This document shows, one piece after another, positions 22,182 through 22,508 of a DNA stretch of 43,137 nucleotides; the first letter of the stretch is position 1; each line of letters starts with the position of its first letter. The translations under genes were made by a program, and so were the position numbers. Source of the DNA: a virus (Duplodnaviria; Heunggongvirae; Uroviricota; Caudoviricetes); the IMG/VR virus record IMGVR_UViG_2541047960_000005. The stretch is one strand, 5' to 3'. The notes under the pieces are model-generated. The model did not search any database, was not told the DNA's origin, and saw nothing but the letters and a program-made list of their open reading frames with translations.

Positions 22182-22508
22182 ATGAAAAGAAATCTTCCGT
22201 TAATTATTTTGTTGTCTTCTCTGGTTATGGGCTGTACGCAACATAAAACAGATATGCCCCGACAGTTGGTTAAGGCATTACCACAATATCCGGCCTATGC
22301 AGCGGCAAATTATATAAAGGGACGGGTTGATGTGAAGTTTGATATTGGTGCTGATGGTACTGTCACCCGAATTGAGTTTATCCGTTCAGAGCCGCACCAT
22401 TTGTTTGATGAGCAGGTTGTAAAGGCGATGGCAAAATGGCGATTTGAGAAGGACAGGCCGTGTAAAGGCGTGAAGAAAACGTTTATCTTTAGTCCTTCTG
22501 CACCCTGA
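22182..22508 (+). CDS. lipoprotein carrying a TonB C-terminal-domain-like fold
   Basis: Signal MKRNLPLIILLSSLVMGC; mature part PQYPAYAAANYIKGRVDVKFDIGADGTVTRIEFIRSEPHHLFDEQVVKAMAKWRFEKDRP aligns closely with my recollection of the E. coli TonB C-terminal domain ([60 protein letters not shown]). Confidence 0.75.
   Translation: MKRNLPLIILLSSLVMGCTQHKTDMPRQLVKALPQYPAYAAANYIKGRVDVKFDIGADGTVTRIEFIRSEPHHLFDEQVVKAMAKWRFEKDRPCKGVKKTFIFSPSAP

What the first reader, a model, noticed from the sequence alone, without database searches (positions are those of the whole stretch)
22182..22508. Lipoprotein with a TonB C-terminal-domain-like fold in the bor slot after Rz/Rz1
The 108-aa product has a lipoprotein signal (LVMGC; Thr at +2 suggests outer-membrane sorting) and its mature part aligns with the TonB C-terminal domain (PQYPA...G.V.VKFD...DG.V..I.......LF...V..AM..WR.E), the module that contacts TonB boxes of outer-membrane transporters. 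A tethered TonB-CTD mimic could occupy TonB boxes and block TonB-dependent phages (T1, phi80) and colicins (B, D, Ia, M), or modulate iron uptake. Lambda carries the unrelated bor lipoprotein at this position.
Basis: partly seen in the sequence, partly recalled or inferred. Interest (0 to 1): 0.75.

Follow-up and report, generated by a model that had tools for sequence, protein, structure and literature searches.

The report
Prophage lipoprotein copying TonB's C-terminal domain
A lambdoid E. coli prophage encodes a small, probably outer-membrane-anchored copy of just the receptor-docking domain of the host protein TonB (and, 6.5 kb upstream, a similar copy of TolA's), most likely decoys that blunt TonB/Tol-dependent entry of rival phages and colicins; the domain call is already in databases, but I found no study of its function.

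Summary
ORF 22182-22508 encodes a 108-aa lipoprotein precursor (lipobox LVMGC, Cys18, Thr+2). Residues 26-104 are a TonB C-terminal domain: Pfam TonB_C scores 54.9 bits, identity to E. coli TonB is 39% without gaps, and the AlphaFold model fits BtuB-bound TonB at 1.0 A. It follows Rz/Rz1 and precedes the terminase genes.

RefSeq already calls it "TonB family protein". This allele is in 417 of 5,426 complete E. coli genomes and the phage-21 allele in 1,225. I found no functional study.

New findings:
- It belongs to a family of short TonB-CTD-only lipoproteins under purifying selection (dN/dS 0.10-0.18).
- In four relatives examined with four different lysis cassettes, plus two E. coli alleles, it sits between the lysis and packaging genes.
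- Many relatives, both phage-borne and chromosomal, carry near-perfect Fur boxes just upstream. The window allele does not.
- The same prophage encodes a second lipoprotein (15594-16022) that is a TolA domain-III copy.

Best explanation (confidence 0.45): an outer-membrane-tethered decoy that binds TonB boxes without transducing energy, protecting the host from TonB-dependent phages and colicins at some cost to iron uptake. The mechanism is inferred, not shown.

The parts
22182..22508 (+). Gene for the 108-aa lipoprotein precursor made of a TonB C-terminal domain only (stop codon included)
   Evidence: ORF list and sequence. Pfam, NCBIfam and PDB matches. dN/dS 0.13-0.17 against other E. coli alleles.
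22182..22235 (+). Signal peptide (aa 1-17) and lipobox Cys18 codon (22233-22235), followed by Thr19 (+2)
   Evidence: Read directly from the sequence. Cys is invariant in the family alignment. No family member has Asp at +2.
22236..22256 (+). Tether: 7 residues (TQHKTDM) lie between the lipidated Cys18 and Pro26, where the TonB-like domain starts
   Evidence: Alignment to TonB P153 onward. By my count of the gaps in the alignment, family members have roughly 7-14 residues here.
22257..22493 (+). TonB C-terminal domain (aa 26-104, equivalent to E. coli TonB 153-231), including the PxYP motif (aa 34-37) and the beta3 strand (aa 94-103)
   Evidence: Gapless phmmer alignment. AF2 secondary structure. 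Foldseek 1.0-1.4 A to 2gsk_B, 2grx_C and 1u07.
22141..22161 (+). Candidate own promoter and operator: an extended -10-like TGtTAGAAT (22141-22149) overlapping a perfect 17-bp palindrome AGAATAAGACTTATTCT (22145-22161). Relatives have a Fur box at this position.
   Evidence: The block TTGTnAGAATAAGAC is conserved in three E. coli alleles. The palindrome is listed and occurs only once in the window. It matches the Fur consensus at only 13 of 19, which is not above chance. The strict promoter scan did not report it.
21376..21843 (+). Rz i-spanin with embedded Rz1 o-spanin (21596-21781): the complete spanin pair just upstream
   Evidence: Pfam Phage_lysis 169 bits and Rz1 75 bits.
15594..16022 (+). 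Sister gene: a 142-aa lipoprotein (lipobox LTTGC, Cys20, Thr +2) whose residues 54-142 are a copy of TolA domain III
   Evidence: Pfam TolA PF06519 81.9 bits. Translation. PDB 1s62, 3qdp and 1tol at E about 1e-26, gapless, with 48 of 89 residues identical. In at least 10 E. coli genomes it lies 6.5 kb from the TonB-CTD gene.

Best explanation
[quoted passage not shown] It is held by a 7-residue tether at the periplasmic face of the membrane, which is where TonB-dependent transporters expose their TonB boxes. It lacks TonB's membrane anchor and proline-rich rod, so it cannot couple to ExbB/ExbD. The proposed mechanism is that it captures TonB boxes by beta-strand augmentation on its beta3 edge without delivering force. 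The captured boxes would belong to transporters such as FhuA, FepA, CirA and BtuB, and/or to incoming group B colicins. This would compete with TonB and lower TonB-dependent entry of phages (T1 and phi80 types), colicins and microcins, at some cost to siderophore and B12 uptake. It would be made from the late operon, and probably also from its own promoter in the lysogen. In relatives, expression is very likely Fur-controlled, so the decoy would rise together with its iron-regulated targets. The TolA-domain-III lipoprotein in the same prophage would do the same for the Tol route. What is shown: gene, lipobox, fold, family, selection, gene context, and Fur boxes in relatives. What is inferred: outer-membrane location, TonB-box binding, and the protective phenotype.
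For: Fold and sequence match TonB's CTD, most closely as seen bound to BtuB and FhuA. In my numbering from the gapless alignment, the PxYP motif and TonB positions F180, F202, W213, Y215 (as Phe) and F230 are all kept, and beta3 keeps its alternating hydrophobic pattern. TonB-box binding is parallel beta-augmentation on beta3, mostly through backbone H-bonds, so a faithful fold should suffice. Lipobox and +2 residues fit outer-membrane sorting, and the tether is short throughout the family. Overexpressed periplasmic TonB domain inhibits TonB-dependent iron import (Howard 2001, as cited in PMC9841981). dN/dS is 0.10-0.18. In four relatives with different holins, endolysins, spanins and terminases, and in two further E. 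coli alleles, the gene sits between lysis and packaging genes, as expected of a moron, and it lies in a GC dip. Fur boxes matching 12-14 of 14 lie 23-60 nt upstream in about 19 phage and chromosomal relatives, against 31 of 4,401 background windows, which is roughly the number of these sites. The same prophage holds a TolA-III lipoprotein.
Against: No binding, localisation or phenotype data exist. Fur-induced inhibition of iron uptake would be costly, and chromosomal relatives in Klebsiella, Raoultella and Serratia also carry Fur boxes, which points to a physiological role. TonB R166 and Q160 are replaced: the first is Tyr39, conserved in most of the family, and the second is Leu33 here and variable elsewhere. 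The family has its own signature, SEPxHLFD...KWRFE, which may mean a different partner. TonB-like CTDs can bind other ligands, for example FusB with ferredoxin. The window allele has no significant Fur box and no consensus promoter. There is no PADLOC match.
Confidence: 0.45

Rival explanations
1. It is an accessory or modulatory component of iron uptake, not an inhibitor. As a Fur-regulon lipoprotein it would dock on TonB boxes, signalling domains or another periplasmic partner to tune or assist transport or signalling. Phages would have borrowed it as a fitness factor for the lysogen.
For: Near-perfect Fur boxes lie upstream of chromosomal relatives in housekeeping contexts in Klebsiella, Raoultella, Serratia and Erwinia. 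The family-specific conserved motifs differ from true TonB. FusB shows that TonB-like CTDs can bind substrates.
Against: There is no known way for a CTD without an energy source to assist gating. No transporter or iron-uptake gene was seen among the flanking genes checked in five chromosomal loci. The E. coli phage alleles have lost the Fur box. The paired TolA-III lipoprotein fits a decoy logic better.
Confidence: 0.2
2. It is a late-gene envelope or lysis accessory. Made from the late operon, it would bind peptidoglycan or envelope proteins and weaken or reorganise the envelope at lysis, or stabilise it in the lysogen as an outer-membrane-to-peptidoglycan tether.
For: The gene has the same orientation as the lysis and packaging genes, lies directly after them, and no terminator was predicted between them. 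The slot next to lysis cassettes is conserved. A TolA-III decoy could plausibly loosen the outer membrane (inference from the known tol phenotype).
Against: TonB is not needed for envelope integrity. Lysis cassettes are complete without this gene. ST64B and lambda place unrelated morons in the same interval. Fur boxes imply expression outside lysis.
Confidence: 0.1
3. It is an o-spanin, as the PHROG label 'Rz-like spanin' (phrog_1267) suggests.
For: It matches PHROG 1267 at E=8e-43. It is a lipoprotein gene next to an i-spanin gene.
Against: The window has Rz1 embedded in Rz. L128 and L134 also have their own embedded o-spanins. The protein is a globular TonB-fold domain, not a short proline-rich o-spanin. 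Phage 21's curated record lists a separate o-spanin.
Confidence: 0.03
4. It is a functionless remnant of host tonB picked up by the phage.
For: One older annotation calls it a 'partial tonB-like membrane protein' and another a 'TonB fragment'.
Against: It is only 39% identical to E. coli TonB. It has gained a lipoprotein signal at a precise domain boundary. dN/dS is 0.10-0.18. It is intact in hundreds of genomes and in diverse phages.
Confidence: 0.03

Closest known systems
TonB (E. coli P02929), C-terminal domain residues about 153-239
   Same: Same fold (1.0-1.4 A to 2gsk_B, 2grx_C and 1u07). 39% identity without gaps. The PxYP motif, aromatic core and beta3 strand are kept.
   Different: It has no N-terminal transmembrane anchor and no proline-rich spacer, so it cannot couple to ExbB/ExbD. 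It has a lipoprotein signal instead. TonB R166 is Tyr and Q160 is Leu. It ends 4 residues earlier.
Engineered periplasmic TonB C-terminal fragments (Howard et al. 2001, J Bacteriol 183:5885, cited in PMC9841981)
   Same: A TonB C-terminal portion alone in the periplasm. It is reported to inhibit TonB-dependent iron import. This is the direct functional precedent.
   Different: Those are laboratory constructs of the host protein, soluble and overproduced. This is a natural, diverged, lipid-anchored phage gene.
Cor (phi80, N15, HK022, mEp phages) and Llp (T5), phage lipoproteins that exclude FhuA-dependent phages
   Same: They are small phage-encoded lipoproteins that protect the cell through an outer-membrane transporter. 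Llp sits in the inner leaflet of the outer membrane and binds FhuA (abstract of 10.64898/2026.03.26.714494). [quoted passage not shown]
   Different: No other Pfam domain family matched this protein, so it is not related to them by sequence. Cor and Llp target one receptor. A TonB mimic would act on the shared TonB-box step of many receptors.
Bor/Iss lipoprotein of lambda
   Same: A lipoprotein moron in the same interval between Rz/Rz1 and the packaging genes.
   Different: Unrelated sequence, opposite strand, and it coexists with the TonB-CTD gene in phage 21.
TolA domain III, and the TolA-III lipoprotein at window 15594-16022
   Same: Same design: lipoprotein signal, Thr +2, then the C-terminal partner-binding domain of a host envelope energy transducer. 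TolA III and the TonB CTD have related folds (TolA entries appear as weak hits).
   Different: It is a different host protein (54% identical to TolA III), has a longer linker of about 33 residues, and occupies a different slot, between the tRNAs and the nanS-p-like esterase.
Dedicated TonB paralogues (HasB, FusB, TonB2)
   Same: They are diverged TonB CTDs with specialised partners.
   Different: By established knowledge, they keep the inner-membrane anchor and energy coupling.

Membership tests
TonB_C domain family (Pfam PF03544 / TIGR01352) | Profile match above the curated cut-off | tested here: met
   PF03544 scores 54.9 bits against 24.6. TIGR01352 scores 54.6 against 27.1.
TonB_C domain family (Pfam PF03544 / TIGR01352) | TonB CTD fold of helices and strands, with the conserved YP motif | tested here: met
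   AF2 pLDDT is 96-98 in the domain. Foldseek gives 2gsk_B at 1.0 A and TM 0.94. Y36-P37 align with TonB Y163-P164.
Bona fide TonB energy transducer | N-terminal transmembrane anchor that couples to ExbB/ExbD | tested here: not met
   The N-terminus is a cleavable lipoprotein signal. TonB equivalog models are matched only over their C-terminal 80-90 positions and fall far below their cut-offs (74 bits against 315).
Bona fide TonB energy transducer | Proline-rich periplasm-spanning spacer | tested here: not met
   Only 7 residues lie between Cys18 and the start of the domain.
Bona fide TonB energy transducer | Binds the TonB boxes of transporters | not testable with these tools
   No docking or binding assay was available. 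This is inferred from the fold and from the backbone-driven mode of binding.
Bacterial lipoprotein, outer-membrane sorted | Lipobox with an invariant Cys after an n-region and h-region | tested here: met
   MKRN-LPLIILLSS-LVMGC. Cys is invariant in 13 members.
Bacterial lipoprotein, outer-membrane sorted | No Lol-avoidance Asp at +2; actual acylation and localisation | tested here: inconclusive
   The +2 residue is Thr, and Ser, Thr or Ala elsewhere in the family. That fits the +2 rule, but localisation and acylation need experiments.
o-spanin (PHROG 1267 label 'Rz-like spanin') | It is the outer-membrane lipoprotein partner of the i-spanin: short, proline-rich and needed for lysis | tested here: not met
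   A separate Rz1 is present in the window and embedded o-spanins are present in relatives. This protein is a globular TonB fold.
Cor / Llp receptor-blocking lipoproteins | Sequence relationship to Cor or Llp | tested here: not met
   Only TonB_C and TonB_2 were matched in Pfam. PHROG hits are phrog_1267 and phrog_34172.
Fur regulon | Fur box overlapping the promoter | tested here: inconclusive
   The window has 13 of 19 at the homologous position, which 30 of 132 AT-rich windows also reach. About 19 relatives have 12-14 of 14 to TGATAATnATTATCA at -23 to -60.
Known anti-phage defence systems (PADLOC) | Match to a defence-system protein model | tested here: not met
   No hit for this protein or for two relatives.

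The most novel reading that the evidence does not exclude
Temperate enterobacterial phages carry outer-membrane-anchored decoys of the C-terminal docking domains of both envelope energy transducers, TonB and TolA. Together these would shut both import routes used by colicins (groups B and A) and by Ton- or Tol-dependent phages. In many relatives the TonB decoy is Fur-controlled, so it would be induced together with the iron-regulated receptors it shields. This would be a widespread, so far undescribed class of prophage-encoded protection by host-domain mimicry, present in roughly a quarter of E. coli genomes and in classical phage 21.
Probability: 0.35. Interest if true: 0.8.

Novelty: new variant of a known kind. 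Interest (0 to 1): 0.66.

Why it matters
The family is very common. This allele is in 417 and the phage-21 allele in 1,225 of 5,426 complete E. coli genomes, and it occurs in Stx1a-converting phages and in Klebsiella prophages. I found no functional study. If it is a TonB-box decoy, it would be a new way for prophages to protect their hosts: mimicking the host's energy transducer rather than blocking a single receptor. It could change lysogen sensitivity to TonB-dependent phages, colicins, microcins and siderophore-antibiotic conjugates, and it could affect iron acquisition in the gut. The Fur boxes in relatives and the sister TolA-III lipoprotein make the idea directly testable, using simple genetics in phage 21 lysogens.

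Tried and rejected
- The first AF2 run used a shallow 9-sequence alignment and gave only pLDDT 64.7 with weak Foldseek scores. It was replaced by a run on a diverse family alignment.
- The search for related loci with the broad alignment failed on genome contigs. On viral contigs it returned only near-identical copies, so I used a subfamily alignment instead.
- The strict sigma-70 and terminator scan found nothing upstream on the + strand.
- A Fur box in the window itself was rejected as not significant: it matches 13 of 19, which 23% of AT-rich windows also reach.
- The 17-bp palindrome is not repeated elsewhere in the window, so it is not an immunity operator. It also does not form an unusually stable RNA hairpin (z = -0.28).
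- tblastn with the window's lysis and terminase proteins failed to annotate the neighbours of most relatives, so I used Pfam scans instead.
- The phage's own receptor could not be inferred from the J C-terminus, because the best matches are Stx-phage J proteins of unknown receptor. The related genome has no annotated cor gene.
- PADLOC gave no hit.
- Ten literature searches found no paper on this gene. The two papers on phage Lys8385Vzw do not mention TonB.
- Howard 2001 and the Cascales colicin review are not held.
- The spanin reading and the gene-remnant reading were considered and rejected.

Full report
**Observation**

The ORF at 22182-22508 (+) is real and encodes 108 aa, MKRNLPLIILLSSLVMGC|TQHK.... 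Two upstream in-frame starts exist (GTG 22167, ATG 22176). Only the ATG at 22182 is conserved in the three E. coli alleles I aligned, and RefSeq uses it.

The N-terminus has a basic n-region, a hydrophobic core and the lipobox LVMG-C18, with Thr at +2. Cys18 is invariant in 13 family members, and no member has the Lol-avoidance Asp at +2. Outer-membrane sorting follows from the established +2 rule. It was not tested.

**Domain and fold**

- Pfam TonB_C scores 54.9 bits against a cut-off of 24.6.
- TIGR01352 scores 54.6 bits against 27.1. The enterobacterial TonB equivalog models are matched only over their last 80-90 positions.
- phmmer against PDB sequences returns only TonB C-terminal domains (8rd6, 1u07, 1xx3, 2gsk, 2grx; E about 1e-16). 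The alignment is gapless, with residues 24-104 matching TonB 151-231, and 31 of 79 residues are identical.
- A first AlphaFold2 model from a shallow alignment was mediocre (pLDDT 64.7).
- With a diverse family alignment, pLDDT rose to 86.4 overall and 96-98 across residues 30-100.
- That model superposes on TonB taken from the BtuB complex at 1.0 A (TM 0.94), on TonB from the FhuA complex at 1.1 A, and on 1u07 at 1.3-1.4 A.

Using the fixed offset of 127 from the gapless alignment, the following TonB positions are kept: P161, Y163, P164, G174, G186, P198, F202, W213, P220, F230 and F180, with Y215 as Phe. Beta3 keeps its alternating hydrophobic pattern. Two positions differ. TonB R166 is Tyr39, which is conserved in most of the family. 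TonB Q160 is Leu33 here and is variable across the family. The review read reports that TonB Q160L is a functional suppressor allele.

The protein has no transmembrane anchor and no proline-rich rod, so it is a TonB_C-domain protein but not a TonB.

**What is already public**

- The same DNA at 99% identity or more is in 7 phage records. These are Stx1a-converting phages, Lys8385Vzw ("protein TonB") and JLK-2012 ("putative tonB-like membrane from phage origin").
- It is in 417 of 5,426 complete E. coli genomes, annotated "TonB family protein".
- A 72%-identical allele is carried by classical phage 21, where the curated record calls it "TonB C-terminal domain protein". That allele is in 1,225 of 5,426 genomes.

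The domain call is therefore not new. Ten full-text searches and two targeted readings found no study of its function. PADLOC has no model for it. PHROGs labels its family "Rz-like spanin".

**A wider family**

The exhaustive representative search found 4,591 TonB_C relatives. Among them is a set of short proteins (107-133 aa) that align end to end with this one. Most have a lipobox.

By my count of the gaps in the alignment, they share a tether of roughly 7-14 residues, an end soon after beta3, and a signature of their own (SEPxHLFDxxVIxAxxKWRFExxKPxxGMxK). That signature differs from true TonB ([21 protein letters not shown]).

Pairwise dN/dS is 0.10-0.18 wherever dS is not saturated. The gene is therefore maintained by purifying selection and is not a decaying fragment of tonB.

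**Context**

In the window the gene follows the endolysin, then Rz with embedded Rz1. It precedes a DUF3950 gene on the minus strand, an HNH endonuclease and the terminase subunits. It lies in a GC dip of 42-43%, against 55-58% on either side.

Relatives sit between the lysis genes and the terminase in phages whose modules are otherwise unrelated:

| Locus | Lysis module | Packaging or nearby genes |
|---|---|---|
| L128 | Holin_3_1, GH19 endolysin, DUF2514 spanin | |
| L136 | Holin_3_7, GH19 | gpA terminase; an Ivy lysozyme-inhibitor gene next door |
| L137 | Holin_3_7, GH19 (about 2.3 kb upstream) | Terminase_2/6N (about 2 kb downstream) |
| L159 | LydA holin, GH108 | |
| L197 | | Nu1-type terminase |
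| L198 | Same arrangement as the window | |

Lambda has bor in this interval on the other strand. ST64B has an unrelated gene there. Phage 21 has both bor and the TonB-CTD gene. The interval is therefore a moron hotspot.

The spanin label is positional. The window, L128 and L134 all have their own embedded o-spanins.

Chromosomal relatives also occur in Raoultella, Klebsiella, Serratia, Pantoea and Pseudescherichia, next to housekeeping-type genes.

**Regulation**

The strict scan found no sigma-70 promoter or terminator on the + strand, so late-operon read-through is expected.

By eye there is an extended -10-like TGtTAGAAT at 22141-22149. It lies inside a block that is conserved in all three E. 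coli alleles, and it overlaps a perfect 17-bp palindrome at 22145-22161.

The key result came from relatives. At the same position, 23-60 nt before the start codon, about 19 phage-borne and chromosomal members carry Fur boxes that match TGATAATnATTATCA.

- 14 of 14: L128, L130, L131, L133-L136, L084, L089.
- 13 of 14: L085-L088, L090, L092.
- 12 of 14: L083, L095, L123, L152.
- The Klebsiella phage group matches the 19-mer consensus at 12-14 of 19.

Among 170-nt background windows from the same loci, only 31 of 4,401 reach 12 of 14, which is roughly the number of these sites. Fur control of the family is therefore strongly inferred.

The window allele matches the 19-mer only 13 of 19, which 30 of 132 AT-rich windows also reach. 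The phage-21-type allele has lost the second half-site. Fur control of this particular gene is therefore doubtful.

The replacement palindrome remains unexplained. It is unique in the window and does not form a notable RNA hairpin.

**A second mimic in the same prophage**

While surveying the window I found that ORF 15594-16022 encodes a 142-aa lipoprotein (lipobox LTTGC, Thr +2). Its residues 54-142 align without gaps to E. coli TolA domain III. Support is Pfam TolA at 81.9 bits, PDB 1s62, 3qdp and 1tol at E about 1e-26, and 48 of 89 identical residues.

It sits after two tRNA genes and before the nanS-p-like esterase, which is where Stx phages carry stx (from my knowledge of Stx phage maps).

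- PGAP mislabels it "tolA".
- It is in 125 E. coli genomes at 80% coverage or more.
- In at least 10 genomes it lies 6.5 kb from the TonB-CTD gene, as it does here.
- A 68%-identical copy lies between Q and the lysis genes in phage mEp460_ev081.
- Its PHROG family has no assigned function.

A phage porin gene lies at 13242-14384 on the minus strand.

**Mechanism**

TonB boxes bind TonB's CTD as a parallel strand added to beta3, mostly through backbone hydrogen bonds. A CTD that reproduces the bound TonB conformation to 1 A, and that is tethered at the membrane face where TonB boxes emerge, should be able to accept them. With no anchor to ExbB/ExbD it cannot pull.

Overproduced periplasmic TonB domain is reported to inhibit TonB-dependent iron import (citing Howard 2001, which I could not read). 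From my own knowledge, that work also reported reduced phi80 and colicin M sensitivity. Also from my own knowledge, periplasmic TolA domain III confers tolerance to group A colicins and Ff phages.

Two host-derived docking domains, each converted to a lipoprotein in one prophage, are most simply read as decoys for the two import routes that colicins and several phages use.

I put 0.45 on this reading. The main reservation is that Fur-induced blockade of iron uptake would be costly, and chromosomal relatives share the Fur box. A modulatory role in iron uptake therefore gets 0.2. A late-gene envelope role gets 0.1. The spanin and remnant readings get about 0.03 each.

**Verdict**

The domain annotation is already known. 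The regulation, the family structure, the conserved moron slot, the prevalence and the paired TolA mimic are new here. I class it as a new variant of a known kind: a phage-encoded envelope lipoprotein that protects the host, built by mimicry of a host domain.

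Noticed in passing
window 15594-16022 (+): A second lipoprotein (lipobox LTTGC, Thr +2) whose C-terminal 89 residues are 54% identical to E. coli TolA domain III. It sits where Stx phages carry stx. PGAP mislabels it 'tolA'. It is in 125 E. coli genomes, and in at least 10 of them it lies 6.5 kb from the TonB-CTD gene. PHROG 5772 has no assigned function.
   Followed up: partly
L128:4966-4986 and the equivalent sites in L084-L092, L095, L123, L130-L136: Near-perfect Fur boxes (TGATAATnATTATCA, 12-14 of 14) lie 23-60 nt upstream of TonB-CTD lipoprotein genes in phage-borne and chromosomal relatives from Klebsiella, Raoultella, Serratia, Erwinia and Pantoea.
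   Followed up: yes
window 22145-22161: A perfect 17-bp palindrome, AGAATAAGACTTATTCT, occupies the position where relatives have the Fur box. It is unique in the window, is not a significant Fur match, and does not form a notable RNA hairpin. Its ligand, if it has one, is unknown.
   Followed up: partly
window 13242-14384 (-): A prophage-encoded general porin (Porin_1, 503 bits), transcribed in the opposite direction to the late-region genes around it. It is another envelope-modifying moron in the same element.
   Followed up: no
window 15154-15315 and 16621-18582: tRNA-Met and tRNA-Arg are followed, after the TolA-like gene, by a DUF1737/SASA/DUF6645 esterase. This is the architecture of an Stx-phage late region, but without stx genes.
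   Followed up: no
window 19481-20469: Two ORFs lie just upstream of the endolysin gene: a DUF1327 protein at 19481-19969 and a 161-aa protein with no Pfam hit at 19984-20469. In E. coli CE10 the equivalent stretch lies between the holin and the lysozyme and is annotated as a YdfR-family pseudogene plus a hypothetical protein.
   Followed up: no
L201 (phage 21, OL657228) 1682-2782: Classical phage 21 carries bor on the minus strand and, after one small ORF, a TonB C-terminal domain gene (the P0007-type allele). That allele is in 1,225 of 5,426 complete E. coli genomes, including the type strain ATCC 11775.
   Followed up: partly
L136:5449-5871: An Ivy (inhibitor of vertebrate lysozyme) homologue lies directly downstream of the TonB-CTD lipoprotein gene in one prophage. 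It is another periplasmic moron in the same slot.
   Followed up: no
L202 (mEp460_ev081) 6080-6475: A second, weakly TolA-III-like ORF (26% identity over 134 aa) lies directly downstream of the TolA-like lipoprotein gene.
   Followed up: no
window 22650-22901 (-) and 22883-23248 (+): A DUF3950 (YlcI/YnfO) gene on the minus strand overlaps the start of an HNH endonuclease gene by 19 nt. Both lie just upstream of the small terminase subunit.
   Followed up: no
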